A stretch of DNA of 64,000 nt from Candidatus Multivorans sp. (GCA_965224025.1 OZ245033.1:384001-448000), one strand, 5' to 3'. Shown: positions 14,281 through 47,004, counted from the stretch's first letter. A program made the numbers and translations. The notes: generated by a model not told the origin, from the sequence alone.

Positions 14281-14360
14281 GCTGCGGTAGAGAGTTGGCC
14301 GAGATGACGCCGGTGCTCTGGGTGCGCGGGTCTTCTGACCCGCTGCCGCCGTAGGCGGCC
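14281..14360. repeat. REP-like hairpin element (single copy)
   Basis: GCTGCGGTAGAGAG box then CTCTGGGTGC-GCGGGTC-TTCT-GACCCGC at 14316. Confidence 0.8.
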
Positions 14361-15505: not shown

Positions 15506-15813
15506 GTTGCAGTAGAGAATCTCGCTGCCCGGCGCCCGTTCTCTGGGTGCGCGGACCTTCTGGTCCGCATCGAGCGCGATGCTGCGAAGCAGCGAGCACG
15601 AGCTTGTTCCATGCAAGTAGGAACAGCGCCCCGCTGCGCTTGCACGCAGGGAACTGGGCCGCGGACTGGCGCGCAGGCGCAGAACTGTCGCCGGCCTTCG
15701 GCCAGCGGCAGTTTTCTCCGGACTTCGCCGCTTCGCGGCTTCGCCCGGAAGCGGACCAGAAGGTCCGCGCACCCAGAGAACCGCCGTCGACGCGTTGTGG
15801 TTCCCTGCTGCAG
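15506..15813. repeat. Inverted REP-like doublet (REPIN/MITE-like)
   Basis: GTTGCAGTAGAGAA plus hairpin at 15541, inverted hairpin at 15751 plus TTCCCTGCTGCAG. Confidence 0.85.
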
Positions 15814-30708: not shown

Positions 30709-33700
30709 CTACCAGGGCATCGTCCGCCCGGTGTGCTCCCTCCCCACCTCCGCCGAATCCTCCCGCCGGCCCGCGCCGATCATCACCCCCCGGTCGAGCT
30801 GCTGCTCCACATTCCCCGGCAACACGTTGTCGAGGAAGAACATCCCCCGCTCCTTCGTGAGTTCCAGCGCCATGTCGCCGGCGGCGACGACTTCGGGGGG
30901 AAGCGGCGGGTCGGCGCGGCCTTCGAGGTGGCCGTGGGAGAGGCCCAGGTCGCGGGGGCCGTGTTCGGCGAAGGCGAGGCCGGGGACGGAGAGGGTTTCG
31001 GCGGCTCGGTCGAGAGCCTGCTGGTCTTCGAGTTTGACGCCGAGCATGATCTCGCCTTCGGGGTTGAGGGGCCAGACGTCGGCTTTCCGGAGGTACTCCT
31101 GGGCGTTCAGGCCCCAGACCCAGGCGGCGAAGGTGTGGCTGCCCCAGCCGCGGAGGCCCTCGCCTACGACGTCGATGGCCTGCTTGTGGATCGGGTAGCG
31201 GGCGGCCTGGACGAAGCGCTTGACTCCTTCGGGGTCGCGGGCGCGGGCGAGGTGGACGCCGTGGACGCCCTGGGCGAGGGCCTGTTGGACCATCCAGCCG
31301 CCGGCTGTGACGGTCGCTTCGTCTAAGCCGAGCAGAGGCAGGGAGACGATGACGGTCGGCGTCCGGTGGCCGCTCAGGGTGGGACCGGCATCGACGAGGC
31401 CGCGCATGAACTCGCGGAGCGCCGCGAAGTCGAGGGCCATGTGCTCGACGTTGTAGATGATGTAGTCGCCCCAGGTGTTGGCCATGCGCATGCCTTCTTC
31501 GTAGCCGCCGGTGGAGGCGTCGTAGTAGATGGGCTGAGCCCGCTCGAGGAGTTCGATGGACTTGTTGATCCGCTGGGGCTGGTAGTCGGACGCGGCGCGG
31601 GCCGCGTCGAAGCCCTTGCCGAAGCCGGGGGACGAGGTGGTCTGGCGGTAGGTCGGCAGCAGGCGGAGTTCGGTGGCGGAACGGAGGTCGCCCCAGAGGG
31701 TCAGGTGGCGTCCGGTGGCGGAGTGGACGACGCCCCAAGCGTCGCCGCCTACGACGACCCGGCCGGCGAGATCGACGGCGGGGAGGAGTGCCGAGACGTC
31801 GACCTGGGTCTGGTGGCTGGACGCCGAGTAGGAGGTTCCGAGCACCTGGAGTTCCCTGCCGTCTTCCAGGAACTCGGGCAGTCCGGCGGTGTTCCCTTCG
31901 CCCGCGGCGCCATCGCGGAACATGGACGCGCTGACGATCGCGGTGCCGTCGCTCTCAAGCGAGCCCGAGACGATGTTGTTGCTGAAGCGCGTCGGCTCTA
32001 GGCCCTCCTTGGTCTCGATGAGCAGGGTGTCTTCGAGGATCGTGTTGTCGGTGACTTCGAGTTCGCTGCGTTGCAGGTAGAAGCCGTTGTTGAGCGCGGC
32101 GATGTTGCCGGTGACCCGGCCGCGGCTCTCCATCGTGATGCGGGTGGCGCCGGAGTTGCCGGACGGGTTCGAGTTGCCGAAGAAGCGATTGCCGGTGACT
32201 TCGACGAAGAAGTCCGCAGGCGTAGGCATCGGGTCGAACGGCCGGTCGTAGCGGTGCTCCTGGCCGCCCACGAAGAGGCCGCCGCCGTCGTCTCCGCCGT
32301 GGTTGGCGACGATGACGTTGCCCAGGACCTTCGCCGAGGACCAGTACGCGACGAAGATGCCGCCGGCGTCGTTGTTGTGGAGGGCCTGGTTGCCGAGGAC
32401 GACGTTGCCGGTGATCTTGGGGGATGAGTGATTGAAGACGGAGATGCCGCCGCCGTCGCTGCTGCGCATGGGATCGGCGGTGCCGGCGATGTTGCCGATG
32501 AGGACGTTGTCCGCGATCACGCCGTTGCAGTTGTGGTCGAAGGCGATGCCGGCGCCGCGGCCGGTTTCGGTGGTGTTGGCGAGGATCAGGTTGTTGCGGA
32601 TCTCGGGGGCGCCGCCGTTGCGGCAGTAGATGGCGCCGCCGTCGTGGGCGGTTTCGTGGAGGTACTTGGGGGCCCAGTCTTGGGGCGTCAGCGTGGCGTT
32701 CTGGGTGAAGACGTTGTTGGTGAGGAGGGGGGATGTGCCGTCGATGAGGATGCCGGCCCCGGGGGCGCGGGTGCGGCCGTTTTGGATTTGGAGGCCGTCG
32801 ATGCGGGTGGCCGGGGTGTTGGTGGCGGTGGCGGTGGTGGTGGCGGCGGTGGTAGTGGCGGTGGTGGCGGTGATGAGGACGCGGCCTTCGTGACGGGCGT
32901 CGAGGATGGTGGGGTGGGCTTGGAGGTCGCGGGTCCAGGTGGTGGGGTTGAAGCCGCCGTAGAGGTCGGTGTTGGGTTCGAGCGTGAGGTTGTGGACGTT
33001 GTAGGTGCCGGCGGCTATGAGGATGGCGGCGCGCGCTGTGTCGGCCGTGGTGGTGGCGGAGGCGGCGGTGAAGGCGTGGGGGATGGAGGCGTAGGGGGCG
33101 GAGGCGGTGCCGGTGCCTGTGGAGTCGGAGCCGGTGGTGGTGGAGACGTGGAGGATTTGGGTGTACGCGTCGAGGTCGACGGGGGTGGTTTGAGGGCCGG
33201 TGGTGGCGGCGGCGGTGGGTGTGGTTGTGATGGTGGTAAGGAGGAGAGTCGCAGCGAGGGTGAGGAGGGTGTTCCAGAGGTGGCGGCGGCGCTGCGCGCC
33301 GGTTGTAGGGCCGCTGCTGGTGTTCGTGAGGGGCAGATGCGGACCAGAAGATCCGCGCACCCAGAGATACGCCGCCGGCTTGGCGAAACGCTCTACGCAA
33401 CTGGTGGGTCGGCGTGCAGGCGCCGGATGCGGGCCAGAAGGCCCGCGCACCCAGAGATACGGCGTCGTGGGGGCGTCAATCTCTACTGCAATCGGCAAGG
33501 TGTCGCTGCGAGCGGATGCGGGCAGAATGCCCGCGTTCCCAGGGTTCGGCCGACGAGTCGCGGAGCGGCGAGCTCGAGGGGGACGCGAGAGGCCGAAGGC
33601 GGAGCTCCTTCGTGGGGCTGTCGCTGCGGCGGATGCGGGCAGGATGCCCGCGTTCCCAGGGCTTGGCCGACGGGCCGCGGAGCGGTGAGTTCGGGGGTGG

Positions 33701-33762
33701 CCTGCGAGGCAGGAGGCCGAGCTCCTTTGTGGCGGGCGCGGCGCTGTCGTTCTACGGTTCAC
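30709..33762 (-). CDS. Secreted right-handed beta-helix protein fused to an HpcH/HpaI aldolase-like domain
   Basis: GGAGG RBS plus GTG at 33762; HVSTTTGSD..APYASI, GGAI/GGGI repeats, C-terminal EH..GVKLED..GPRDL. Confidence 0.78.
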   Translation of the reverse strand: MNRRTTAPRPPQRSSASCLAGHPRTHRSAARRPSPGNAGILPASAAATAPRRSSAFGLSRPPRARRSATRRPNPGNAGILPASARSDTLPIAVEIDAPTTPYLWVRGPSGPHPAPARRPTSCVERFAKPAAYLWVRGSSGPHLPLTNTSSGPTTGAQRRRHLWNTLLTLAATLLLTTITTTPTAAATTGPQTTPVDLDAYTQILHVSTTTGSDSTGTGTASAPYASIPHAFTAASATTTADTARAAILIAAGTYNVHNLTLEPNTDLYGGFNPTTWTRDLQAHPTILDARHEGRVLITATTATTTAATTTATATNTPATRIDGLQIQNGRTRAPGAGILIDGTSPLLTNNVFTQNATLTPQDWAPKYLHETAHDGGAIYCRNGGAPEIRNNLILANTTETGRGAGIAFDHNCNGVIADNVLIGNIAGTADPMRSSDGGGISVFNHSSPKITGNVVLGNQALHNNDAGGIFVAYWSSAKVLGNVIVANHGGDDGGGLFVGGQEHRYDRPFDPMPTPADFFVEVTGNRFFGNSNPSGNSGATRITMESRGRVTGNIAALNNGFYLQRSELEVTDNTILEDTLLIETKEGLEPTRFSNNIVSGSLESDGTAIVSASMFRDGAAGEGNTAGLPEFLEDGRELQVLGTSYSASSHQTQVDVSALLPAVDLAGRVVVGGDAWGVVHSATGRHLTLWGDLRSATELRLLPTYRQTTSSPGFGKGFDAARAASDYQPQRINKSIELLERAQPIYYDASTGGYEEGMRMANTWGDYIIYNVEHMALDFAALREFMRGLVDAGPTLSGHRTPTVIVSLPLLGLDEATVTAGGWMVQQALAQGVHGVHLARARDPEGVKRFVQAARYPIHKQAIDVVGEGLRGWGSHTFAAWVWGLNAQEYLRKADVWPLNPEGEIMLGVKLEDQQALDRAAETLSVPGLAFAEHGPRDLGLSHGHLEGRADPPLPPEVVAAGDMALELTKERGMFFLDNVLPGNVEQQLDRGVMIGAGRREDSAEVGREHTGRTMPW
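33339..33737. repeat. Four REP-like hairpins (two tandem pairs) inside the 5' coding region
   Basis: Hairpins at 33339, 33429, 33518 and 33635; direct duplication 33501-33618/33619-33737. Confidence 0.85.
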
Positions 33763-33767
33763 GGTCT

Positions 33768-36392
<2,625 letters not shown>

Positions 36393-36395
36393 CGG

Positions 36396-38252
36396 CTAGC
36401 TCCCCTCTCGGCCGGTCACGGCGAGGTCGCCGTGCGGAATCACCAGAGTCTCGATCAGCTCATCATCAATCGAGTAGATCTGGTACGTCACCCGCGGGTC
36501 CTCGCGCGCGGTGTCGAACGTCAGCAAACCGAAGGAGTCCTTCAGGTTGTAGCTGAACAGCGCGCCCGGCTCTACGGGGTGCGTGTGGATGTTGGTCAAC
36601 TGGCCGCTCAGGAGGTCGTGGAAGGCGTAGCCGCTGTCGCGTTCGATCGCCCAGGCTTCGGAGCGGTGGCGGTCGGACGAGAGCAGGATCACGCCGGAGA
36701 TGTCGCTCGCCTCGATGAAACCGAGGATCTCCTCGCGTTCTTCGGGGAAGCCCGACCAGGTGTCGCGGCTGCCGGGCTTGGCGCCGTCGGCCCAGGCTAC
36801 GGGGCTTGCGATCACCTTGAAGGTGGCCTGGGAGTCGGCCAGCGAGTCGAGCAGCCAGGCCTTCTGCACCGGACCCAGCATGGTGGGCTCTTCGGCGAAG
36901 GGGTTGGTCCGGTAGGTGCGGCCGTCGAGCAGGAAGAAATCGACGTCCCCCAAGGGGAACCGAAACCAGACGCCGGGGTGGGACTCCGAAACGTAGGCCG
37001 GGTTGTTCCAGTTGCGGCGGAACAGGTCGACCATCGGTTGCTTCCACGCGGGACGGTCGACGTAGGGGCCCAGCCAGATGTCGTCGACGGCCGCGTCGTG
37101 GTCGTCCCAGATGGCGTAGACGGGGGTCGAGCTCACGAGGCGCCGGAACTCGGGGCGCGACTGGCGCTGGTAGTAGGTGTAGTCGTGGAACGGGCCGGGC
37201 GGCTCCGGCAGGTCGATGTAGACGTTGTCGCCGAGGAGGAGCAGCGCCAGCGGGGCATGGGCGGCGATCGTGTCCCACATGCGCTCATTGTCCGGCGTGT
37301 AGCCGGCGCAGCCGCCGAAGGCGACGACAAAGGTTCCGGGGGTGCCGGCGGGGGGAGAGGTGCGGAGTGTGTAAGTGGGCGACCGGGATTGCGGCGGCGG
37401 CCGGGACTGTGGCCTGTTCCGGTCGACGACGACCTGGTAGGTGTAGGTCGTGTCGGGCGAGAGGCCCTTGAGCGTTGCCGTGCCGGTGTAGTCGCGGTCG
37501 GCGGCGGTGGCGGCGGTGGCGGTGTGGCGTTCGCCGGCGGCTGTCGCGACGACTTGGAAGGGGGTCGGGACGGCGGTGCGGATCCAGATGCGAGCGCTGG
37601 TGTCGGTGACGGCGCCGAGCATGGGGCCGTGGATGATCGCGTTGTTCGGGCTCGCCGCCTGGAGCGCGAAGCCCTCGGTCGCGGCCAGGGGCGCGAGCAG
37701 CTCGCGCGGGCCGGCGAGGAAGCGGCCGAAGGGCATGCCGGCGTCGAGGGCGACGTGCATCGCCTCCTCGGCAGCGTCTATGCGATCGAGTTGGGAGAGC
37801 GCCACCGCCTTGATGAACCACGATTCGGCGTCGTCTCGGTCTTCGGCGAGCCGGGCGTCGGCAAGTTCGATAGCCCGCTCGGCGTTGCCGTCGAGGATCT
37901 CGAGGAGTTGCCGCTGCCCGCGGCGCTTGTAGTAGAGGTTCGCGGCCCGCTCCGCGAACATGCGGCGGCTCCACTCGTTCTCGGCACCGTAGTAAGGGTG
38001 CGGGGAGTCGCCTTCGTAGGCGTCGGGCGGGCCGAACTCGCCGAAGTTCTCGCCGCCGGGGTTGCCGACTTCGCGGGCGGCGAGCTCGGCGGCACGGTCC
38101 TCGGTGGGGGTGCAGGCGAGGGCTGCGGTTAGCAATGCGGCCGCCGGCCAAAGGCCGGCGACGTTGTTTCCGCCGCCTGCGGCGGCAGCGGGCCGGAAGG
38201 CCCGCGCACCCAGAGATACGGCGTCGACCTGGCGGTGTTCTCTACTGGGCAT
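36396..38252 (-). CDS. PhoD-like alkaline phosphatase D lipoprotein
   Basis: GDNVYID, IWDDHD, LDGRTYR, SDRH; lipobox ALAC. Confidence 0.85.
   Translation of the reverse strand: MPSREHRQVDAVSLGARAFRPAAAAGGGNNVAGLWPAAALLTAALACTPTEDRAAELAAREVGNPGGENFGEFGPPDAYEGDSPHPYYGAENEWSRRMFAERAANLYYKRRGQRQLLEILDGNAERAIELADARLAEDRDDAESWFIKAVALSQLDRIDAAEEAMHVALDAGMPFGRFLAGPRELLAPLAATEGFALQAASPNNAIIHGPMLGAVTDTSARIWIRTAVPTPFQVVATAAGERHTATAATAADRDYTGTATLKGLSPDTTYTYQVVVDRNRPQSRPPPQSRSPTYTLRTSPPAGTPGTFVVAFGGCAGYTPDNERMWDTIAAHAPLALLLLGDNVYIDLPEPPGPFHDYTYYQRQSRPEFRRLVSSTPVYAIWDDHDAAVDDIWLGPYVDRPAWKQPMVDLFRRNWNNPAYVSESHPGVWFRFPLGDVDFFLLDGRTYRTNPFAEEPTMLGPVQKAWLLDSLADSQATFKVIASPVAWADGAKPGSRDTWSGFPEEREEILGFIEASDISGVILLSSDRHRSEAWAIERDSGYAFHDLLSGQLTNIHTHPVEPGALFSYNLKDSFGLLTFDTAREDPRVTYQIYSIDDELIETLVIPHGDLAVTGREGS
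38188..38248. repeat. REP-like element in coding N-terminus
   Basis: GCGGGCCGGAAGGCCCGCGCACCCAGAG...TTCTCTACTGG. Confidence 0.85.
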
Positions 38253-38280
38253 GCAGGGCTATCGCTGCGGCACCCGAAGA

Positions 38281-39594
38281 TCACCGGTCGACGAAGGCGC
38301 CATCTTCGGTGGTCAGGGTGCTCCAGTCCTTCTCCTGGAAGGGGTACTTCGCGGCCACTTCCTCGTCGAGGTCGATGCCGAGACCGGGGCGGCTGGGGAG
38401 CGGGGCAAAACCGCGGTCGTAGGAGAAGTGGCCGCCGTAGAAGAGGTCCTGCCAGAACGGGTCCTGGCCGCTGCCGATCTCGAGGATGGTGCAGTTCGGG
38501 GTGCAGGCGCAGACGTGCATCGACGCCAGCGTGCTGACCTCGCTCTGCGGGTTGTGCGGCGAGACGTCGACGCGGAAGCCCTCGGCCATGATCGCGATCT
38601 TGCGCAGTTCGGAGATGCCGCCGACGTGGACGACGTCCGGCATGATCACGTCGACGAGCCGTTCGGAGCACAGCGGCGCGAAGTGGTAGCGCGAGGTGAG
38701 GCGCTCGCCGGTCGCCAAGGGCACGCGGGTCTGGGCGCGGATCTGCCGCACCTCCTCGATCACCTCGTTCTCGAGCTGGGTGACTTCCTCCACCCAGAAC
38801 GGCCGAAACTCCTCCACCCGGTTGCAGAACTCGACCGCGGAGAGCGGGGTCGGCTTGCCGTGCGCCTCGACGATGATGTCGAAGTCCGGGCCCACGATGT
38901 CGCGCACCTTGGCGAGGTGTTCGACGCCGCGGCGGATCGACACGCGGTGGTTGATGGGCCGGCCGCCCGGGTAGAAGCCGCCTTTGACGCAGGTCCAGCC
39001 GGCTTCCTTCTTCTGCCGCCAGAGGTCGAGGGCCTCCTCTTCGTCCGCGGCGCGGCGTTTCTCGCGGTGGCTGATGCGCTCGAGGTAGCCCTCGTGGCAG
39101 TAGAGCCGCACCCGGTCACGCGCCTTGCCGCCGAGGAGTTGCCAGATCGGCTGGCCGAGGGCCTGGCCGAGGATGTCCCACATGGCGACCTCGACCGCGG
39201 AGAGCGCCGACATGAGCACCGGGCCGCCGCGGTAGCGGGGGCCGATGAACATGCCGCGCCAGTGGCGCTCGATCTCGGTCGGGTCCTTGCCGACCAGGTA
39301 GCGCTTGTGGTTCTCAATGGCGGCCGCGACGACTTCGCCCTTGTTGGAGAGGGTGCCTTCGCCGAGGCCGGTGATTCCCTGGTTGGTGTAAAGCTTGACG
39401 AAGACGAAGTTCTCGTCGTTGCCGGCGTCGACGAGGAAGGTGCGGAGGTCGGTTATGCGGAGGTTGAGGGGCTTGGCGTCTTCGAACGTCTTCTCGAGGG
39501 GGCCGGGTTCTTGGGCCGGCAGGACGCGGGCGGTGGCGGCCGTGGCCAGGCCGAGCGCGGCCGTGAGGAGGGTCCTGCGATCGAGGTCAGTCAT
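38281..39594 (-). CDS. Mandelate racemase/galactonate dehydratase-like enzyme with Tat signal
   Basis: DRRTLL, GITGLGE, WDILGQALGQP, EAHG/WVEE/TGER, PHNP, RPGLGI. Confidence 0.88.
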   Translation of the reverse strand: MTDLDRRTLLTAALGLATAATARVLPAQEPGPLEKTFEDAKPLNLRITDLRTFLVDAGNDENFVFVKLYTNQGITGLGEGTLSNKGEVVAAAIENHKRYLVGKDPTEIERHWRGMFIGPRYRGGPVLMSALSAVEVAMWDILGQALGQPIWQLLGGKARDRVRLYCHEGYLERISHREKRRAADEEEALDLWRQKKEAGWTCVKGGFYPGGRPINHRVSIRRGVEHLAKVRDIVGPDFDIIVEAHGKPTPLSAVEFCNRVEEFRPFWVEEVTQLENEVIEEVRQIRAQTRVPLATGERLTSRYHFAPLCSERLVDVIMPDVVHVGGISELRKIAIMAEGFRVDVSPHNPQSEVSTLASMHVCACTPNCTILEIGSGQDPFWQDLFYGGHFSYDRGFAPLPSRPGLGIDLDEEVAAKYPFQEKDWSTLTTEDGAFVDR

Positions 39595-39624
39595 GCGGGG
39601 TTGGCTCTCGGCGAAGACGTGACG

Positions 39625-39843
39625 GTTGCAGTAGAGAACCGCATCGACACGACGGCGGTGCTCTGGGTGCGCGGGTCTTCTGACCCGCTCTCGGGCGAAG
39701 CCGCGAAGCGGCCAAGCCCGGAAGAACAGGGCCGCCGGCCGAAGGCCGGCGACGTTGCTTCTGGCCGCCTTCGGCGGCAGCGGGTCAGAAGACCCGCGCA
39801 CCCAGAGATACGGTGCGGCGTGGATGAAACGCCCTGCTGCAAG
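39625..39843. repeat. Inverted REP-like doublet
   Basis: Hairpins at 39661 and 39780 with outer GTTGCAGTAGAGAA and CCCTGCTGCAA boxes. Confidence 0.85.
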
Positions 39844-39850
39844 TGGGGTC

Positions 39851-41482
39851 TCACCTTGCGTCGCCTCCGTGTTCGTCGACGAAGCGCCAATCGTGGCGGG
39901 CCTTCTCGTAGCCGGGGTTGATCGTCATTTCGCCGGCGCCGATCTGCTGGCGCCAGGCGACGAGTTGCTGGAGGAGGCTGTCGGAGAGTTCGGGTTTCTC
40001 CGCCGCGAGGTCGGCCGTTTCGCCTGGGTCGGCGTTGAGGTCGAAGAGGCTGACCGCGGGGCCGACGCCGGCGATGGAGCCTTCGAACCACTCGATCAGC
40101 TTGTGGTCGCCCTGCCGGATGGCGCCCGCCGGCATGTAGCCGAGGTGGTGGTAGTGCGGGTAGTGGAAGAAGAGCGTGTCGCGGTCCAGTGAGCCGCTTC
40201 CGTCGAGCACCGGCAGGAGGCTCAGACCGTCGATGTCGGCGGGCAGGTCGGTGACGCCGAGGATGCCGGCGATCGTCGGGAAGAAGTCGTCCGAGGTGAT
40301 CAGCTCGTCGTTGACGCTGCCGGGCGCCACCACGCCCGGCCACTTGACGGCCATCGGCACGCGGACCCCGCCTTCCCAGATCATCGCCTTGCCGCCGCGG
40401 AACGGGTCCTGCTCCTGGAGCTGCTCGAAGCCGCCGTTGTCGGAGTAGAAGATGACGATCGTGCGCTCGGTCAGGCCGTGCTCCTCGATGCGGTCGAGGA
40501 TCTGCCCGAAACCGGTGTCCATCGTCTCGATCATCGCGCCCATGACCGGGTTGTTCACCGGGTCAGAGGCTTTGGGCTTCCCCTCGTACCTGGCGATCAG
40601 CTTCGGGTCCTCCAGCAGCGGACGATGGACCACGTGGTGCGAGACGTAGAGGAAGAACGGCTGCTCCCGGTTCGCGTCGAGAAACGCGAGCGACCGTTCG
40701 GTGATCTCGCGGGCGTGGTGGGCGTCGGCTAAGGGGTCGTCCTCGTACTCCGGCTTGACGGTGGTCAGGATGTCGTCGAAGCCTTGGGAGCCCGGGTCCA
40801 TCGGTCGACCGGGCACGTACTCCTTGTCGACGTTCAGGTGCCACTTGCCGAAGTGGCCGGTGGCGTAGCCCTGGGACTTGAACAGCTCGGCGATGGTGAC
40901 TTCCTCGAGCGGGAGTCCGGGCACTTCGGCGGGTCGGAGAAGGCGGGCGTAGGGGTAGGGGCTGCCGGGGATGTAGTCGGTGATCTGGAGGCGGGCCGGG
41001 TTCTTGCCTGTCATCAGGCTGGCCCGGGTCGGTGAACAGACGGGGTTCGCGGAGTAGGCGTTCGAGAACTGCATGCCGGCCGCGGCGACGGCGTCGATGT
41101 TCGGGGTCTCGTAGAAGGTCGTGCCGTGGTAGCCGACCTGGTTCCAGGCGAGGTCGTCGGCGAGGAAGAGAACGACGTTCCAGGGGGTTGGCGTGTCGGC
41201 TTCAGGCGCCGGGTCGGGGGCCGGGCCGCAGGCCGCCAGGAGGAGGGTCGCTGCAACTGCAGTAGAGAACCTGGCTACGCCGACGGCCGTTCTCTGGGTA
41301 CGCGGACCCTCTGGTCCGCTTGCCGCCGAAGGCGGCGTCAGAATCGCCGCCGGCGAAGCCGGCGACCGCATTTTCCGGGCTACGCCGCTCCGCGGCTTCG
41401 CCCGGGAGCGGACCAGAAGGTCCGCGCACCCAGAGAACGGGCGGTGCCGTGGGCGCGATTCTCTACGCAACCTAAGGGTCAT
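39851..41482 (-). CDS. Cys-type sulfatase lipoprotein
   Basis: ADDL, CSPTRASLMTG, GKWH, SDNGG, GGVRVP; GGAGG RBS. Confidence 0.92.
   Translation of the reverse strand: MTLRLRRESRPRHRPFSGCADLLVRSRAKPRSGVARKMRSPASPAAILTPPSAASGPEGPRTQRTAVGVARFSTAVAATLLLAACGPAPDPAPEADTPTPWNVVLFLADDLAWNQVGYHGTTFYETPNIDAVAAAGMQFSNAYSANPVCSPTRASLMTGKNPARLQITDYIPGSPYPYARLLRPAEVPGLPLEEVTIAELFKSQGYATGHFGKWHLNVDKEYVPGRPMDPGSQGFDDILTTVKPEYEDDPLADAHHAREITERSLAFLDANREQPFFLYVSHHVVHRPLLEDPKLIARYEGKPKASDPVNNPVMGAMIETMDTGFGQILDRIEEHGLTERTIVIFYSDNGGFEQLQEQDPFRGGKAMIWEGGVRVPMAVKWPGVVAPGSVNDELITSDDFFPTIAGILGVTDLPADIDGLSLLPVLDGSGSLDRDTLFFHYPHYHHLGYMPAGAIRQGDHKLIEWFEGSIAGVGPAVSLFDLNADPGETADLAAEKPELSDSLLQQLVAWRQQIGAGEMTINPGYEKARHDWRFVDEHGGDAR
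41258..41471. repeat. Inverted REP-like doublet inside the sulfatase 5' region
   Basis: Hairpins at 41292 and 41408. Confidence 0.85.
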
Positions 41483-41497
41483 CGTCTATTCGCCTCC

Positions 41498-43057
41498 TCA
41501 CGCCTCGCTTCGCTTTCGGTCTTTCCAGCCAGCATAGGTCAAGTTGCGGTCCACCTCGCGGGCCGGGAAGAAGTAGCTCGCCGCCCAGGCGACGACGAAG
41601 AGCACGATGTGACTGTAGACGCCGAGCATGTAGTTGTGCTGCGTGTAGTTGAGCGGGCCCAAGTCGAGCAGAATGCGCGGCTCGCCGCCGAGGCTGAACT
41701 CGGTGGACGTCAGCAGCGCCGCCGCGGTGAAGAGCACGCAGACGCCGACGCCGACGTAGAGGCCCTGCTTGTTCACGCGCGGCACGAAGATGCCGAGCAG
41801 GAACATGCCGGCGATGCCGCCCGAGAAGATCGCGTAGAGGGCGAACACGGTCGCCAGCACGCCCGCGTCGCCGACGGCGGCATAGATGAGCGCGACCACG
41901 ATGGAGCCGACGCCCGACAGGACGACGACGATCTTCCCCACGCGGACGCGCTGGGCCTCCGTGCTCCGCGGCCGGAGCTTCTTGTAGTAGTCGTCGACGG
42001 CGACCGCGGCGAGGCAGTTGAGGTCCGAGTCGAGCGACGAGATCGCCGCGGCGAGCAGCGCCGCGATGATGAGCCCGATGACGCCCACCGGCATCTCGTT
42101 CAGGATGAAGTGCGGGAACACGGCGTCGGCGCGGAGGCCGTCCGGCAGCGTCGCGGACCCCTGGTAGAAGGCGTAGAGCGCCGTGCCGATGAACATGAAC
42201 ATCACCCACACCGGCACCACCATCAGCACCCCGCCGATCGAGGCTCGGATCGCTTCCTTGTCCGACCTGGCGGTCAGGTAGCGCTGCACCATCGTCTGGT
42301 CGGTGCCGTACTTCTGGACGGCGTAGAAGATGCCGTTGATCGCCATGACCCAGAAGGTCAGTTCGACCAGGTTCCAGTCGAACGAGCCGAGGCTCACCTT
42401 GTTCTCGGCCGCCGCGATGGTGAACACCTGGCCCAGGCCGCCGTCGAGCTTGACGGCGATGACGAGCAGGGTCACGAGGCCGCCCAGGATGAGCAGCACC
42501 CCCTGGATCACGTCGAGCCAGATGACCGCCTCCATCCCGCCGAGGAGCGTCAGGACGGTCACCACCAGGCCAAGGACCACGATCACCGTGACGACGCCGA
42601 TGCCCGTCATGCTGGAGACCGCCAGCGCGAGCAGAAAGAACACGGAACCCATGCCGGCGAACTGCGCCAGCACGAAGGCCAGCGAGGCGTAGAGCCGCGC
42701 GAGGTAACCGAACCGCCGCTCGAAGTACTCGTAGGCGCTGAGCCCGATGACCTTGCGGTACATCGGCACGATGAAGCCGATGCCGGCCAGCACGACGACC
42801 GGCACCATGAGCCCCTGCACCAGGCGCACCCAGTTGCCGGCGAAGCCGTCGCCCGGGTAGGCCAGGAAGGTGATGCTGCTGATCAGCGTCGCGAAGATGG
42901 ACAGGCCGATCGCCCATACCGGGACGTTACGGCCGGCGGCGAAGTACTTCGAAGTCGTCGACTGGGCCTTCGCGAAGCGGAGGCCCACGCCTAACGACAG
43001 GACGAGGCTCGCCCCGATGATCAGGTAGTCGAGGAGGTGGAGGGATGGGGTGTCCAT
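41498..43057 (-). CDS. Sodium:solute symporter
   Basis: YFAAGR, SAYEYFERRFG, GGMEAVIWLDVIQ, DQTMVQRYL, AAAISSLDS. Confidence 0.93.
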   Translation of the reverse strand: MDTPSLHLLDYLIIGASLVLSLGVGLRFAKAQSTTSKYFAAGRNVPVWAIGLSIFATLISSITFLAYPGDGFAGNWVRLVQGLMVPVVVLAGIGFIVPMYRKVIGLSAYEYFERRFGYLARLYASLAFVLAQFAGMGSVFFLLALAVSSMTGIGVVTVIVVLGLVVTVLTLLGGMEAVIWLDVIQGVLLILGGLVTLLVIAVKLDGGLGQVFTIAAAENKVSLGSFDWNLVELTFWVMAINGIFYAVQKYGTDQTMVQRYLTARSDKEAIRASIGGVLMVVPVWVMFMFIGTALYAFYQGSATLPDGLRADAVFPHFILNEMPVGVIGLIIAALLAAAISSLDSDLNCLAAVAVDDYYKKLRPRSTEAQRVRVGKIVVVLSGVGSIVVALIYAAVGDAGVLATVFALYAIFSGGIAGMFLLGIFVPRVNKQGLYVGVGVCVLFTAAALLTSTEFSLGGEPRILLDLGPLNYTQHNYMLGVYSHIVLFVVAWAASYFFPAREVDRNLTYAGWKDRKRSEA

Positions 43058-43145
43058 GGGCTAGTTACCGCCCGACGACCGTTGATGCTCGGGCTCGCCG
43101 CTTCGCGACTGTTCTTCCTCCCGGGCCAGAAGACCCGGGCTACGT

Positions 43146-43209
43146 GCGGACCAGAAGGTCCGCGCACCCAGAGAACGGTCGTCGATGCGGCGTGACTCTC
43201 TACTGCAAC
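43146..43209. repeat. REP-like element (intergenic)
   Basis: GCGGACCAGAAGGTCCGCGCACCCAGAG...CTCTACTGCAAC. Confidence 0.85.
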
Positions 43210-43327: not shown

Positions 43328-46096
43328 CTAGAACGACCAGCGCATGCCGGCGTTGAAGGTCCGGCCCGTGATGTCGTACTGGGAAGCCCGGCTCGCGATG
43401 CCCCGGTAGAGGTAGACCACCTCTTCCGTGATGTTGTTCGCCTGCAGGAACAGCTCGAGACCGCTGTCGAAAAGATAGGTGAACGAGTAGTCGAGGTACA
43501 TCGCCGAGTCGTTCCACTCGTCCGAACCGGCCTCCTCGCCGACCTCGCTCAGCCACCTGCCGCTCGTGTTGAGGGCGAGCCGGGTCAGGATCCGGTTCTT
43601 CTCGTAGATGAGCGCCAGGTTGCCCATGGTCTCCCTCTGTTCCGGCAGCACGTTGATGTCGTCGCGATCGCTCTGCTCACCGAGATCGATGCTCATCACG
43701 TCGGTGTACGTGAAGTTCGCGTAGATGCCGAAGCCCGAGTCCCAATGCTGCTGCCAGGCGACCTCGATGCCCATCAGGTCCGCGTTGCCGCCGTTGACCG
43801 GTTCCTCCACGTCGAAGCCGTCGAACTCCCCGCCGCGCTGGGTCGTCGCGGCGACGAAGTTGAAGTCGTCGATGCTCTTGAAGAACACGCCGCCGGAAAT
43901 GATGCCGACGTTGTCGAAGAACCGCTCGACCAGGAAGTCGAGGTTGTTCGAGAGCGCCGGATCGAGGTGCGGGTTGCCCCGCACGATCTCCTCGTCGTCC
44001 GTGTGGGTGTAGGAGAACGGCATCGAATCCCAGAAGTTGGGCCGGGCCATGCCGCGCGTGAAGGCGGCTCGCAGGAGGGTCTCCTCCGACAGGGCGTAGC
44101 GGAACTGAAGGTTGGGATAGACGAAGTCGTAGGACCGCGACACGCTTTCCTGCGTGTTCCCGAGCACGTCGTCGTCATTGACCACGAGGTTCGCCGCCGA
44201 GTAGTCCAGGTCGTTGAACTCGCCCCGGACGCCCACCAGCATCGTCAGCCGTCCGTACTCCTGGGTGGTCATCGCGTAGACGCTGGTGATGTCCTCCTCG
44301 GCGTTGTACGGCTCGCCCAGGTTCACGTCGTTACGCACCTCCTCAACGAACCCGCCCGGGCCCTGGTTGGCGTAGAAGAAGGAGCGGAAACCCGAACGGT
44401 TGTACTCCTGGCCGAGGTTGTAACCGCCCTCGGTGATGTTCGTGCCCCCGGCCTCGAACTGGTTGAGGAAGAGGTCGTCATCGCCCTTCCACTTCCACTT
44501 CGAGCGCAGGTCGGCGCGCTCCTTCTGCAGCGCGCGGAGCTTCACGCCCAACTTGAACTCGCCGGTATCGCTGCCCCACTGCATCGGCCTGGTCAAGTCC
44601 AGCTTGGCGGTGTCGATCGTGCTGGTCGTGTTCTCGAACTTCTCGTCCACGGCGTCGAACTCGAAGACACCGCTGTCATGGATGTCCCGCCGGGTCGAAT
44701 CCCAACCCGGCGCCTTGCCGCCGATGTCGGTCACGCTCAGGTCGAACCCGCGGGCCTGGAACTCCGGCTTGAGCTGCCCTTCCGGCTTCTTGGTGAAAGC
44801 GGCGCTCGTCGACAGCGAGAAGTCGAGCACGGACAGACCCAGCCGGTGCTCCCCGCTGACGCTGTAGGCCGTGATCTCCTGCTCCTCGAGGCGATCGTGC
44901 AGGGACTTCACCAATCTCAGGCCCTCGACCTCCGTGGGGCTGATGTAGTCGCCCTTGTCCCAGCGGATCCGCGTGATCTGGCGGTCCTGGTCGTCTTCGC
45001 GGTAGTTCTGCACCACGCTGAAATCGAGCTTGTGGTTGTCGTTGAGGCGGACCTCGAGTCGCGCGTTGGCGCCGTACCGGTCACGATCGTTGGCCGAGAA
45101 CTGTGCCTCCGTGTTCCTGAGCGCATAGGGAATCTCCGCGCCGCCGACGGTCTCCCGGTCGCCCCACTTGTGCTCGTTGTTGTGGCGCTCGGCCGCGGTG
45201 CGCGCGAAGTTGACGCCGATCGAGAACCCCAGGTTCTGGTTCGTGCCCACCACGGTCGAGTAGTTGAACGCCGAGCGCGAGTGGGTGCCCTCGGCGATCG
45301 AGTTGTCGCCCATGCCCAACGTGAAGTTCGTCACGCCGTCCGGCTGGTCGAACGCGCTCCGCGTCTTCAGGTTGACCGCGCCGCCGACCGAGTCGGCGTC
45401 CATGTCCGGCGTCAGGACCTTCGTCACCTCGATGCCGGTCAACTGAGCGGCCGAGATGACGTCGAGCTCGACCATGCGATTCGCGCTGTTCGAGTACGCC
45501 ACCTGCTGGCCGTTGATCGTGATGTTCGTCATCGCCGAGGGCGTGCCGCGCATGGAGACGAAACGGCCCTCGCCGTTGTCGCGGGTGATGGCGACGCCGC
45601 TGACGCGCTGCAGCACCTCGGCCGTGTTCAGGTCGGGGAAGCTCTGGATCTGCTCCTCGGAAAGGACGTTCTTGATGTTGATCGCCTGCTTCTGGTCGTT
45701 CAGCGCCTTGCTCTGCCCGAACCGGACGGCCTGCACGACGATCTCGTCGGCGAACTCGTACCGGGCGTCGAGCGCGATCGGCAGGGTCACCGTTTCCGAC
45801 GCGGTCACCGTGACGCTGGCCTCGAAGTCCTCGAAGCCGACGTAGTTCACCACCAGCGTGTAGTCGCCGGCGGGCACGCCGTCGAGGCGGTAGCGGCCGT
45901 CGCTGCCCGAGCGCGTCTTGTACTGCGTGTCCTCGAGCGCGACCTCGGCGCCCGGAAGCAGGGCGCCGGATTCCTTCTCGGTGATCGTGCCCTGTACGGA
46001 CGGGCCGGCCTGTGCCCAGGCCGTGCCCAGGCAGAAGAACACAGCCAGGGCCGTGATGCCGGCAAAATTCAGAAGGTTCGCGAGTCGCTGTTTCAT
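43328..46096 (-). CDS. TonB-dependent receptor
   Basis: ATG at 46096 with GGGAG RBS; [28 protein letters not shown]-terminal WSF. Confidence 0.92.
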
Positions 46097-46266
46097 GGCG
46101 CAGTCTCCCCCAAAGAAGTAGATATGAGTTAGACCACCCCCGCTCACGACAGCAGGGGTGTTGATCGGTTCCCTGGGGGCGCTATCGGGCCGATAGCCGC
46201 CACAAACGCTGTTGGAGCAAGCTAGCACACAGGGCCGCCACCAAGTGGTCCAACGGCTGGGAGATC

Positions 46267-46558
46267 CGGCGTCCCACTCTTCGAACGTCACCTCACGGAC
46301 GCCGATGGCGAAGGGCTGGGCGATCGTTACCTGGTGCGCGGGGGATTCATCGTCGTAGCGGCCGGGTTCGTCCGGGGGCGAGCCCATGAGGAAGGAGCCC
46401 GCGGGGACGACGACCATCTCGGGGCAGACGTCGCAGTCGCGGAAGGTGGTGCCGGGGTCGGGCGGGGCTTGTGCTGCGGCTGCGGCGGCGGTGCTGAAGA
46501 TCGACGCAGTAGCGACGAGCAGCAGGCTGAACCTTGGGTGCGCACCAGGGGACCGCAT
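46267..46558 (-). pseudogene. Formylglycine-generating enzyme (SUMF1) domain N-terminal fragment
   Basis: [29 protein letters not shown], then similarity stops. Confidence 0.8.
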
Positions 46559-46617: not shown

Positions 46618-47004
46618 AAGGAGCGAGGCCTGCGGCCTCGCGCAACTTCGCCCCGGAAGCGGATCAGAAGGTCCGCGCACCCAGAGAACGGCCTTCCCCG
46701 GAGCGGGACTCTCTACTGCAAACCTACCGCTCGAAGTGACACCCCGACGGTTGCAGAACAGAGGCTGCTCCCATCGCGGCGTATCTCTGGGTGCGCGGAC
46801 CCTCTAACCCGCTGCCGCCGAAGGCGGCCAGAAACACGCGCGAGGCGTCAGCCTCGCTCCTTGCCCAACGCTCGAAGTGACGCAACAACGGCTGCAGAAG
46901 AGAGGCGCGCTCCCATCGCGGCGTATCTCTGGGTGCGCGGACCCTCGAGTCCGCTGCCGCCGCAAGGCGGCCAGGAACACGCGCGAGGCGTCAGCCTCGC
47001 TCCT
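46618..47004. repeat. BIME-like array: one inverted and two tandem ~135-bp REP units
   Basis: Direct repeats 46728-46862 and 46869-47004; inverted unit 46618-46721. Confidence 0.88.

What the first reader, a model, noticed from the sequence alone, without database searches (positions are those of the whole stretch)
33240..41482. REP-like palindromes translated in frame in the N-termini of four exported proteins of one operon
Seen: the hairpin element lies between the start codon and the signal-peptide hydrophobic core of the beta-helix/aldolase gene (4 copies; LWVRGPSGP, PGNAGILPAS), the LamG gene (SLGARTFWSA), phoD (SLGARAFRPA) and the sulfatase (SGCADLLVR, GPEGPRTQR). Four different readings of the element are used, all without stops. 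Starts at 33762, 36392 and 41482 have good RBS sequences within about 15 nt of the upstream stop, and for phoD and the beta-helix gene there is no ATG/GTG/TTG between the repeat and the h-region. Known precedent: Rickettsia palindromic elements inserted in frame in genes. Inference: the element persists in tightly coupled operons by hiding in signal-peptide n-regions that are later cleaved, or it tunes translation or export there.
Basis: partly seen in the sequence, partly recalled or inferred. Interest (0 to 1): 0.8.

Follow-up and report, generated by a model that had tools for sequence, protein, structure and literature searches.

The report
Palindromic repeats translated inside signal peptides
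A small hairpin-forming repeat that litters this acidobacterial genome sits just behind the start codons of several exported-protein genes and appears to be translated as extra, later discarded, signal-peptide sequence, a new setting for the already known habit of such repeats to live inside genes.

Summary
A ~70-nt two-hairpin repeat has 8 copies plus 2 variant copies in window 33.3-41.5 kb and 102 nhmmer hits in the genome. It lies between an SD-linked start codon next to the upstream stop and the hydrophobic core of the beta-helix, LamG and sulfatase genes.

Same-genus genomes give the decisive evidence. At these three junctions an in-frame start beside the upstream gene's end stays open into the gene in 33 of 33 cases, through 33-215 aa of repeat-derived sequence with nearly always different lengths. 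The neighbouring MR/MLE gene has its own ATG behind the repeats, and there the old start is in frame in only 1 of 9 repeat-bearing genomes. Repeat-free orthologues show ordinary ~20-aa signal peptides.

- 74 of 78 repeat clusters lie outside coding cores.
- Copies also sit in frame inside an S9 peptidase.
- The PhoD start in this genome is doubtful.
- No tuning function is shown.

Best reading: a REP/RPE-like selfish palindrome that settles just behind stop codons. In tightly coupled operons only in-frame copies in cleavable n-regions survive. This is a new variant of a known kind.

The parts
41402..41470 (-). Repeat copy (forward with respect to the genes), read in frame as ..RRESRPRHRPFSGCADLLVRS.. 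in the sulfatase n-region. It begins 12 nt after ATG 41482.
41258..41323 (+). Inverted repeat copy, read as ..SGPEGPRTQRTAVGVARFSTA. It runs directly into the sulfatase h-region and lipobox (LLLAAC, 41245-41228). With copy 41402-41470 it forms a ~200-nt hairpin (REPIN/BIME-like doublet).
41480..41500 (-). SSF-transporter stop TGA (41500-41498), SD GGAGG (41497-41493) and sulfatase ATG (41482-41480).
39773..39841 (-). Repeat copy in the spacer between the sulfatase stop (39851) and the MR/MLE start. Not necessarily translated.
39627..39693 (+). Inverted repeat copy in the same spacer, 33 nt upstream of the MR/MLE gene's own ATG 39594 (MTDLDRRTLL, twin-arginine type).
38181..38247 (-). Repeat copy read as ..SREHRQVDAVSLGARAFRPAAA in the PhoD-like ORF from ATG 38252. 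The following hairpin module (GTCGCCGGCCTTTGGCCGGCGGC) encodes VAGLWPAA, the first part of the h-region. The lipobox Cys is at 38114-38112.
38259..38303 (-). Short ORF from the ancestral PhoD start (ATG 38303, inside the MR/MLE 3' end) to TAG 38261-38259, 6 nt before ATG 38252. In 11 of 14 genomes this ATG is in frame with PhoD; here it is not.
36309..36378 (-). Repeat copy read as ..PVENGALGTALSLGARTFWSASG in the LamG lipoprotein n-region. It begins 14 nt after ATG 36392. The lipobox Cys47 is at 36254-36252.
36390..36407 (-). SD GAGGGGAG (36407-36400), PhoD stop TAG (36398-36396) and LamG ATG (36392-36390).
33332..33490 (-). Two tandem forward copies (33422-33490 and 33332-33399), read as ..YLWVRGPSGPH.. 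and ..YLWVRGSSGPH.. in the beta-helix ORF. The h-region starts at about 33282-33262 (RRRHLWNTLLTLAATLLL).
33512..33732 (-). Two copies of a 104-nt variant module (hairpin GCGGGCATCCTGCCCGC), each read as ..PGNAGILPAS.. in the beta-helix ORF.
33760..33778 (-). SD AAGGAGG (33778-33772), LamG stop TAG (33770-33768) and beta-helix GTG (33762-33760).
43144..43207 (-). Further copy between the TonB-dependent-receptor gene stop (43328) and the SSF transporter ATG 43057. An in-frame TAG lies 2 codons before that ATG, so this copy is untranslated and serves as an internal negative control.

Best explanation
WHAT IT IS. The element is a genus-specific REP-like palindromic repeat. One unit is about 58 nt from a GTAG tag to the end of a 7-bp GC hairpin with a TTCT loop. 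Units often occur as inverted doublets with extra small hairpins between the arms. It behaves like Rickettsia palindromic elements.

WHERE IT SETTLES. Like other REPs it accumulates within a few tens of bases behind stop codons. In this polysaccharide-utilisation-type operon (TonB receptor, SSF transporter, sulfatase, MR/MLE, PhoD-like, LamG, beta-helix) the genes are translationally coupled. The SD lies in the end of the upstream gene and the start codon lies 0-15 nt after its stop. 'Just behind the stop' is therefore already inside the next gene.

WHICH COPIES SURVIVE. Copies persist there in one of two ways. Either the start codon was duplicated, as at the MR/MLE gene (ATGA on both sides of the insert). 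Or the insert is stop-free, keeps the frame, and lies in a part of the protein that tolerates any sequence. That part is the n-region of a Sec or lipoprotein signal peptide, which stays in the cytoplasm and is cut off.

HOW TRANSLATION RUNS. Ribosomes start at the SD-linked ATG/GTG and melt the hairpins while elongating. They produce an Arg/Ala/Gly/Pro-rich, net positive extension: 32 aa in LamG, about 79 in the sulfatase and about 160 in the beta-helix protein here, and up to ~296 aa in a relative's PhoD. The native h-region and lipobox follow.

SHOWN AND INFERRED. Shown: the anatomy, the family's distribution, and frame conservation across species against a control. Inferred: that translation really starts upstream, that the extension is cleaved, and that the repeats are tolerated passengers rather than selected regulators.
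For: 1. FAMILY. 102 nhmmer hits. The core pattern occurs 69 times in this genome and 1-448 times in 19 of 24 other same-genus genomes. It is absent from 16 of 16 genomes of other families in the order, and the reversed control gives 0 everywhere. 48 of 69 near-full copies carry GTAG, and the GTAG-to-hairpin-end distance is 57/58/59 nt in 9/28/9 copies.

2. REP-LIKE PLACEMENT. The 78 clusters split into 42 tandem, 21 convergent, 11 divergent and 4 inside coding cores. Background gene pairs are 2862/596/593.

3. FRAME CONSERVATION. An SD-linked start next to the upstream gene's end is in frame and open to the gene body in 12 of 14 sulfatase, 9 of 10 LamG and 9 of 9 beta-helix junctions. The 3 unflagged junctions have in-frame ATG/GTG behind a G-rich SD-like run. 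Start-to-anchor distances take 12, 9 and 8 different values, all multiples of 3, from 114 to 657 nt.

4. CONTROL. At the MR/MLE junction the overlapping GTGA/ATGA start is in frame in 4 of 4 repeat-free genomes but only 1 of 9 repeat-bearing ones. Four of the 9 have in-frame stops. Fisher 30/30 against 1/9 gives p=1.5e-7, though the genomes are not phylogenetically independent. The SSF junction in the window has an in-frame TAG.

5. STOPS. There are 0 stops in 3410 used-frame codons, against 105 in 6726 codons of the other two frames, over 47 junction sequences.

6. REPEAT-FREE STATES.
- PhoD: MARSWIGECSAALLAAVVGC (L031, L033).
- Sulfatase: MKQQSHTGCVGMAAFAFVLAAC (L021).
- Distant LamG orthologues carry ~20-aa signal peptides.

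7. TWO UNLINKED LOCI BEHAVE THE SAME. At G000:C1:1774032 the same SD-ATG is in frame in 14 of 14 genomes; 5 have no insert and 9 have inserts of different lengths. The locus at 636083 is similar.

8. NO START BETWEEN REPEAT AND H-REGION. This holds for 10 of the 15 genes with a repeat near the 5' end and a hydrophobic window.

9. IN-FRAME INSIDE AN ENZYME. In-frame copies at two sites of an S9 peptidase are absent from L119 (site 1) and L124 (site 2).

10. PRECEDENT. Intragenic REPs and RPEs are documented (passages read in PMC3733652 and PMC10969869).
Against: - There is no direct evidence of translation initiation or of the mature N-termini.
- The orthologues are related, so the counts overstate independence.
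- In a 67.6% GC genome, frames are often open by chance. The off-frame stop rate is only 1.56 per 100 codons, and the MR/MLE upstream frame is open in 5 of 9 repeat-bearing genomes without being needed.
- A ~200-nt hairpin of about -198 kcal/mol starting 12 nt after the sulfatase ATG should hinder initiation.
- Signal peptides with n-regions of 80-300 aa are far outside what is usual for bacteria (my own knowledge).
- The PhoD start in this genome has no SD, and the ancestral start is out of frame.
- Nearly every species keeps some repeat material at these junctions, which could also mean selection for it.
- My gene calls and the hydrophobicity test are home-made and crude.
Confidence: 0.72

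Rival explanations
1. Translation of the mature proteins starts inside or behind the repeats. Candidate starts are the GTG within CTGGGTGCGC, the ATG at 41371 in the sulfatase, or a non-canonical codon. The long in-frame upstream stretch would then be a by-product of high GC content or only a coupling leader.
For: - The repeat-internal GTG is in frame in the beta-helix gene and in several other genes (MRGPSGPH..).
- The sulfatase has an in-frame ATG in an unpaired part of the big hairpin.
- Some orthologues have GTG/TTG near the end of the inverted copy (L002, L003, L004, L010).
Against: - The frame in which the repeat is read differs between genes and between orthologues, so the internal GTG is often out of frame (SLGAR and SGCADLLVR readings).
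- Internal starts are not conserved.
- 10 genes have no canonical start before the hydrophobic window.
- If the upstream start were irrelevant, its frame should drift as at the MR/MLE control (1 of 9). It is kept in 33 of 33 junctions.
- An in-frame leader without a stop gives the fused protein anyway.
Confidence: 0.1
2. The repeats are kept at these junctions because they work at the RNA level. They might act as hairpins that stabilise or process segments of the polycistronic mRNA. Or a structure just behind the start codon might make the downstream cistron depend on ribosomes arriving from the upstream gene, or set its translation rate. In-frame translation would be the price paid for that position.
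For: - Almost all same-genus genomes examined carry repeat material at the LamG (9 of 10), beta-helix (9 of 9, partly other modules) and sulfatase junctions.
- Hairpin arms differ between subfamilies by paired changes: GCGGACC/GGTCCGC, GCGGGTC/GACCCGC, GCCGGCC/GGCCGGC.
- The doublet is extremely stable, with z = -9.75.
- REPs and Correia elements are known to affect mRNA stability (abstracts and passages in PMC3733652 and PMC2649163).
Against: - Content, copy number, orientation and distance from the ATG differ at every orthologous junction.
- Repeat-free junctions exist for PhoD, MR/MLE and the 1774032 and 636083 loci, with intact genes.
- Five of 24 same-genus genomes have 0 copies of the core motif.
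- Single units fold only modestly better than shuffles, z -1.3 to -3.8.
- Paired changes in hairpins are also what transposition or recognition by a nuclease would demand.
Confidence: 0.15
3. The genes behind the repeats are decaying or silent, so the junction sequence is unconstrained.
For: - The PhoD start in this genome is disrupted.
- No proof of expression is available.
Against: - Gene bodies are 79-93% identical in protein across the genus, without internal stops.
- Pfam domains are complete.
- Frame conservation at the junctions is itself a sign of constraint.
- Contigs from two RNA libraries (relatives, 90-99% alike) cover the gene bodies. This does not prove transcription.
Confidence: 0.03

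Closest known systems
Rickettsia palindromic elements (RPE; Ogata et al. 2000, as summarised in the review PMC10969869, passages read)
   Same: Both are short palindromic repeats found in intergenic DNA and inserted in frame in unrelated protein-coding genes. In both the host protein is kept and an extra peptide is added. Di Nocera et al. (PMC3733652, passage read) report that N-terminal RPE-1 fusions are expressed in vivo.
   Different: - The phylum is unrelated (Acidobacteriota, free-standing 5-Mb genome, 67.6% GC).
- No sequence relation was tested, because I held no RPE sequence.
- Here several reading frames and both orientations of one unit are used, rather than one conserved peptide.
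- The preferred coding site is the signal-peptide n-region at translationally coupled gene junctions.
- The content at a given site turns over between species.
GTAG-tagged REPs and intragenic REPs (Di Nocera, De Gregorio, Rocco 2013, PMC3733652; abstract and passages read)
   Same: Both have a GTAG tag at one end and a GC-rich hairpin. Both occur as singles, dimers and clusters, lie mostly close to the 3' ends of ORFs, and are enriched between convergent genes. Some copies lie inside ORFs, including N-termini.
   Different: - The unit here is longer (about 58-70 nt, with about 45 nt between the tag and the main hairpin) than the 20-40 bp REPs.
- No RAYT was found here.
- That paper treats most N-terminal REPs as probably non-coding. 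Here comparative frame conservation argues that they are coding.
REPINs / BIMEs mobilised by RAYT transposases
   Same: Both show inverted doublets of a REP unit that form a long hairpin (sulfatase and MR/MLE junctions). Both show very different copy numbers between close relatives.
   Different: No Y1 transposase (PF01797) was detected in this genome. Mobility was not shown.
MITEs
   Same: Both have long inverted arms (about 65-70 nt) around a short core. A short direct duplication (ATGA, up to ATGACCACC) flanks the insert at the MR/MLE junction in several genomes.
   Different: The duplication is seen at one junction only and includes a functional start/stop overlap that selection would favour anyway. 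No parent transposon was identified, and single arms are common.
Mycobacterial interspersed repetitive units
   Same: Both are repeats inside polycistronic operons of a high-GC bacterium that are thought to be translated so that coupling between neighbouring genes is kept.
   Different: As I recall, MIRUs carry their own small ORFs that overlap the neighbours' stop and start. Here the repeat is fused to the downstream protein.
Rfam RF01721 Pseudomon-groES RNA
   Same: It is the only Rfam family with any match: GUAG plus a similar series of GC hairpins.
   Different: The scores are 38.0 and 23.7 bits against a gathering score of 50, so it is not a member.

Membership tests
REP (GTAG superfamily) | GTAG tetranucleotide at one end of the unit | tested here: met
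   48 of 69 near-full-length copies have GTAG within the first 22 nt.
REP (GTAG superfamily) | Short (20-40 bp) imperfect palindrome directly next to the tag | tested here: inconclusive
   The strong 7-bp hairpin (GCGGNCC TTCT GGNCCGC) ends 57-59 nt from the tag. A weaker AGAGA/TCTCT stem adjoins the tag. The unit is longer than classical REPs.
REP (GTAG superfamily) | High copy number, mostly extragenic, close to 3' ends of ORFs | tested here: met
   102 hits fall in 78 clusters, and 74 clusters lie outside coding cores. Convergent spacers hold 21 of these 74 clusters, against 596 of 4051 background gene pairs.
REPIN/REPtron | Cognate RAYT (Y1/HUH transposase) in the genome | tested here: not met
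   PF01797 gives 0 matches in G000. The same search rings in 6 of 14 control genomes.
REPIN/REPtron | Inverted doublets forming a hairpin | tested here: met
   Doublets lie at 41258-41470 and 39627-39841. The 311-nt sulfatase leader folds at -197.8 kcal/mol, z -9.75.
RPE-like in-frame palindromic elements (by behaviour) | Copies inside ORFs that keep the reading frame, with orthologues lacking the insert | tested here: met
   The S9 peptidase carries inserts at two sites, absent in L119 (site 1) and L124 (site 2). Signal-peptide inserts have repeat-free orthologues.
RPE (Rickettsia families RPE-1 to -10) | Sequence similarity to an RPE family | not tested
   No RPE sequence was available from a tool.
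MITE | Terminal inverted repeats plus target-site duplication | tested here: inconclusive
   Inverted arms are present. ATGA(CCACC) is duplicated at the MR/MLE junction in L012, L018 and L024 and partly in others. No duplication was examined or evident at the other junctions.
Rfam RF01721 Pseudomon-groES | Score at or above the gathering threshold (50 bits) | tested here: not met
   38.0 and 23.7 bits.
Sec/lipoprotein signal peptide (host feature) | Positively charged n-region, hydrophobic core, lipobox Cys or A-x-A site | tested here: met
   Lipoboxes: LLLAAC in the sulfatase, ALTVC in LamG (LAAC/LTAC in orthologues) and AALAC in PhoD. The beta-helix protein has a hydrophobic core followed by a T/A-rich stretch. 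The repeat-derived part carries a net charge of +11.7 per 100 aa. No dedicated signal-peptide predictor was available.

The most novel reading that the evidence does not exclude
In this genus the n-region of Sec and lipoprotein signal peptides is the general safe harbour that lets a palindromic repeat family colonise translationally coupled operons. The arrangement is also functional. Signal peptides with cytoplasmic tails of 80 to ~300 residues still direct export. The hairpin placed directly behind the start codon makes each downstream cistron depend on ribosomes delivered from the upstream gene, or sets export timing for enzymes such as sulfatases. Parts of the repeat have even been recruited as n-region charges (..RRDAAKRRAR) and h-region residues (VAGLWPAA in PhoD).
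Probability: 0.2. Interest if true: 0.8.

Novelty: new variant of a known kind. Interest (0 to 1): 0.6.

Why it matters
- ANNOTATION. Gene callers and annotators usually either trim such N-termini or call them artefacts. Here comparative data say that the long start is the real one, which changes start-site annotation for many exported proteins of these sponge-associated Acidobacteriota.
- WHERE SELFISH REPEATS CAN LIVE. The data give a clean natural experiment on where a selfish palindrome can survive in a compact, coupled operon. It survives either after duplicating the start codon or in frame in a cleavable leader.
- LIMITS OF SIGNAL PEPTIDES. The data suggest that bacterial signal peptides tolerate far longer n-regions than textbook values, and this is directly testable with reporters.
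- PHYLOGENETIC REACH. The RPE-type phenomenon is extended to a new phylum and a new protein context.

Tried and rejected
- RFAM. Searches of 33000-42000 and 38100-38300 gave only sub-threshold RF01721 matches.
- RAYT. The search found none.
- RNA EVIDENCE. One search found two RNA runs of one study, labelled sponge metagenome, holding 0.09 and 0.06 of the sampled words, and two runs of unknown kind holding 0.72-0.75. Laying X1-X3 gave only assembled contigs, mostly from relatives 90-99% alike. They cover the gene bodies and break at the repeats. One 1309-nt X1 contig runs from the LamG 3' part (33768-35024) into a relative's beta-helix start and on into a repeat. These contigs show no starts, strand or level, and DNA carry-over cannot be excluded, so I draw no conclusion on expression or processing.
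- PEPTIDE-LEVEL SELECTION. Net charge in the used frame (+11.7 per 100 aa) is not higher than in the unused frames (+14.5). There is therefore no sign that a particular reading is selected.
- UNIT LENGTH. The unit is not a multiple of 3: the mode is 58 nt.
- S9 ALIGNMENT. My script picked wrong frames for 2 of 12 loci (L114, L123). Those rows were ignored.
- STOP POSITIONS. The tblastn-based position of the upstream stop is approximate in some loci. Offsets from the stop are therefore rough, but the frame calls are not affected.
- AUTOMATIC START CHOICE. In one search the automatic choice took upstream codons inside the SSF 3' end for 9 sulfatase loci, which lengthens those segments.
- LITERATURE. 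Searches for this setting found nothing relevant. 'Candidatus Multivorans' gave 0 papers. Palindromic element + in-frame + signal peptide + repetitive gave 2 unrelated papers. Sponge + Acidobacteria + symbiont + REP gave 1 unrelated paper. MIRU + translational coupling + polycistronic gave 0 papers.
- NOT DONE. No structure prediction, complex prediction or large protein-database search was run, because none bore on the question.

Full report
1. WHAT IS THERE

All genes in window 30.7-46.6 kb lie on the minus strand. By Pfam they are, in order:
- a TonB-dependent receptor (43328-46531)
- an SSF transporter (41498-43057)
- a sulfatase (39851-41482)
- an MR/MLE enolase-superfamily enzyme (38281-39594)
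- a PhoD-like phosphatase (36396-38252)
- a LamG-domain protein (33768-36392)
- a beta-helix protein (30709-33762)

The repeat finder and the sequence itself show a ~70-nt unit. Its form is TGCAGTAGAGA, about 25 nt, then TCTCTGGGTGCGCGGNCCTTCTGGNCCGC. Six copies run in the direction of the genes and two are inverted. A 104-nt variant pair lies at 33512-33732.

Each unit contains a constant 7-bp GC hairpin with a TTCT loop, and usually a weaker AGAGA/TCTCT stem. Where a forward and an inverted copy face each other they pair into a very long hairpin. The 311-nt sulfatase leader folds at -197.8 kcal/mol, z = -9.75.

2. THE FAMILY

A profile built from the eight copies finds 102 hits at E<1e-3 in the 5.14-Mb, 67.6% GC genome.
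- Of 69 near-full-length copies, 48 carry GTAG near one end and 61 carry the CTGGGT[GA]CGCGG core.
- The 25-nt core pattern occurs 69 times here and 1-448 times in 19 of 24 other genomes of the genus. It occurs 0 times in 16 genomes of 11 other families of the order. The reversed control is 0 everywhere.
- Public relatives of the LamG gene at 72-87% identity are titled Candidatus Multivorans, Thermoanaerobaculia or Acidobacteriota MAGs.
- No Y1/RAYT transposase was found.
- Rfam offers only sub-threshold matches to RF01721.

With a home-made codon-usage gene caller the 102 hits form 78 clusters. Of these, 42 lie between tandem genes, 21 between convergent genes, 11 between divergent genes and 4 inside coding cores. 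Background gene pairs number 2862, 596 and 593. This is the placement described for REPs, close behind ORF ends and enriched in convergent spacers (passages in PMC3733652).

3. IS THE REPEAT TRANSLATED?

In a genome this GC-rich an open frame means little. The off-frame stop rate in these leaders is only 1.56 per 100 codons. The test is therefore comparative.

I fetched the orthologous junctions from same-genus genomes. For each I asked whether a start codon with an SD next to the end of the upstream gene is in the frame of the downstream gene body.
- Sulfatase: 12 of 14 junctions have such a start, in frame and open.
- LamG: 9 of 10.
- Beta-helix: 9 of 9. L003 ends before that gene.
- The three junctions not flagged by my SD pattern (sulfatase L015 and L019, LamG L007) have in-frame ATG/GTG behind a G-rich run (also visible).
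- In 13 of the 33 junctions, additional SD-near GTG/ATG codons in other frames were flagged too.

The material between start and h-region differs in almost every genome. It may be one unit, doublets, tandem short hairpin modules, or other modules. Start-to-anchor distances take 12, 9 and 8 different values, all multiples of 3, from 114 to 657 nt. The frame in which a given unit is read also differs between orthologues: SLGAR in some LamG genes and HWVRR in others.

Over 47 junction sequences the used frame has 0 stops in 3410 codons. The two other frames have 105 stops in 6726 codons. In that count the automatic start choice was too far upstream in 9 sulfatase loci.

4. THE CONTROLS

The MR/MLE gene in the same operon has its own ATG and a twin-arginine motif behind the repeats.
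- In four repeat-free genomes its GTG overlaps the sulfatase stop (GTGA) and is in frame (4 of 4).
- In the nine genomes with repeats there, the old overlapping start is in frame in only 1 of 9. Four of the nine have stops in the gene's frame. L023 had no anchor.
- Fisher's test of 30/30 against 1/9 gives p = 1.5e-7. The genomes are relatives, so this overstates independence.
- At that junction the tetranucleotide ATGA, and in L012 ATGACCACC, stands on both sides of the insert. One copy ends the sulfatase and the other starts MR/MLE. This could be a target-site duplication, or simply the only arrangement that survives.

In the window itself, the copy upstream of the SSF transporter (a membrane protein without a cleaved leader) is separated from ATG 43057 by an in-frame TAG.

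5. ANCESTRAL STATES

Repeat-free or nearly repeat-free orthologues have ordinary signal peptides.
- PhoD: MARSWIGECSAALLAAVVGC in L031 and L033.
- Sulfatase: MKQQSHTGCVGMAAFAFVLAAC in L021.
- LamG orthologues outside the genus: for example MKVATLYLFAFFASLGVSLASA (16 loci looked at, several with unclear starts).

The PhoD start deserves a caveat. Its ancestral ATG lies 20 nt inside the MR/MLE 3' end and has no SD. It is in frame with PhoD in 11 of 14 genomes, through up to ~296 aa of repeats in L038. In this genome that frame ends at TAG 38261-38259, 6 nt before ATG 38252. PhoD here either re-initiates at 38252 or is impaired.

6. GENERALITY

Two unlinked genes show the same pattern.
- At G000:C1:1774032 (no Pfam family) the same SD-ATG is in frame in 14 of 14 genomes. 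Five have a plain ~22-aa signal peptide and nine carry inserts of different lengths.
- The amidohydrolase lipoprotein at 636083 is similar, with one repeat-free genome.

Genome-wide, 26 genes of at least 150 aa have a copy within -100 to +80 nt of the 5' end of their coding core.
- 15 of the 26 have a hydrophobic window right behind the repeat, against 28-31% of 3337 genes (binomial p 0.001-0.005). Four of the 15 are from this operon.
- 10 of those 15 have no canonical start between the repeat and that window.
- This last class is partly circular. For cytoplasmic proteins I would accept any later start.

The element is not confined to leaders. An S9 peptidase (G000:C1:51889-54324) carries repeat-encoded inserts at two sites, after HEYGGGAF and after WWNLYR. 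Their length differs between species, and they are missing in L119 and L124 respectively (10 of 12 rows usable). Two genes have repeat-encoded C-terminal tails.

7. HOW IT MOST LIKELY WORKS

The repeat settles or survives just behind stop codons, as REPs do. In this operon the next gene's SD lies in the upstream gene and its start follows within 0-15 nt. The same position is therefore inside the next ORF.

Copies there survive in one of two ways. The start codon may be duplicated behind them, as at MR/MLE. Or they may be stop-free, frame-preserving and in a tolerant part of the protein. The unit lends itself to this: 139 of 207 forward frames and 183 of 207 reverse frames of near-full copies are open. 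Every frame gives an Arg-rich, net positive peptide (+11.7 to +14.5 per 100 aa), which suits a cytoplasmic n-region.

The h-region, lipobox Cys or signal-peptidase site follow unchanged, so the extension would be removed with the leader.

What is shown: the anatomy, the distribution, and frame conservation with controls. What is inferred: initiation at the upstream codon, cleavage, and neutrality.

A regulatory role for the hairpins cannot be excluded. It could involve mRNA stability, dependence of the downstream cistron on upstream ribosomes, or export timing. Nothing here supports it beyond the persistence of repeat material at these junctions.

8. COMPARISON AND NOVELTY

REPs inside ORFs, including N-termini, and RPEs fused in frame to proteins are documented (PMC3733652, abstract and passages; PMC10969869, passages). 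Di Nocera et al. regarded most N-terminal REPs in three proteobacteria as probably non-coding.

Four things are new here:
- the phylum
- the consistent use of signal-peptide n-regions at coupled junctions
- the comparative evidence, with an internal control, that the repeats are coding there
- the extreme leader lengths

My searches found nothing on this setting in print. Subscription journals are not covered by those searches. I class the finding as a new variant of a known kind, with interest 0.6.

Noticed in passing
window 39592-39851, and L012, L018, L024: At the sulfatase/MR-MLE junction the overlapping stop/start ATGA (in L012 ATGACCACC) stands on both sides of the repeat insert. One copy ends the sulfatase and the other starts MR/MLE. 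This is possibly a target-site duplication of the element.
   Followed up: partly
G000:C1:51889-54324 (outside the window; L109, L113): An S9 peptidase carries repeat-encoded in-frame inserts at two sites of its N-terminal domain. Their length varies between species. They are absent in one relative each.
   Followed up: yes
G000:C1:2917327-2918208 (-) and 4519207-4520931 (-): Two genes end in repeat-encoded C-terminal tails: a carboxyltransferase-like ORF and an SSF-like transporter. The repeats appear to have replaced or extended the C-terminus.
   Followed up: no
G000:C1:42922-45099 (+) and 964832-965824 (+): Repeat copies lie in frame in what look like linkers of long ORFs. The first may be two genes read as one by my crude gene caller.
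   Followed up: no
window 38259-38303 (-): A 14-codon ORF runs from the ancestral PhoD start to a TAG 6 nt before ATG 38252. It may act as a termination-reinitiation relay, or it may mark a damaged PhoD start in this genome.
   Followed up: partly
window 14284-14350, 15508-15571, 15745-15812, 46653-46961: Further copies of the same repeat lie in the window. Three of them lie between the TonB-receptor gene and its upstream neighbour. None was examined for translation.
   Followed up: no
window 38143-38245 (-) and 41262-41363 (+): The repeat plus its two small flanking hairpins resembles the Rfam Pseudomon-groES motif below threshold (38.0 and 23.7 bits against 50). That motif may itself be REP-like.
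   Followed up: partly
window 43328-46531 (-): The TonB-dependent-receptor ORF has a short partial FGE-sulfatase (PF03781) match at residues 36-89 of the translated core. The N-terminal part of this ORF was not resolved.
   Followed up: no
(many loci): One reading of the short hairpin module..TGCAGLLAGIRRDAAKRRAR.., recurs directly before h-regions of different exported proteins. The S9 peptidase loops mostly use the less charged reading ..LGARAFWPAS..PRSGE... This may be frame choice by context. It was not tested statistically.
   Followed up: no
The copy number of the core motif ranges from 0 (5 genomes) to 448 within one genus. This points to recent bursts and losses.
   Followed up: no
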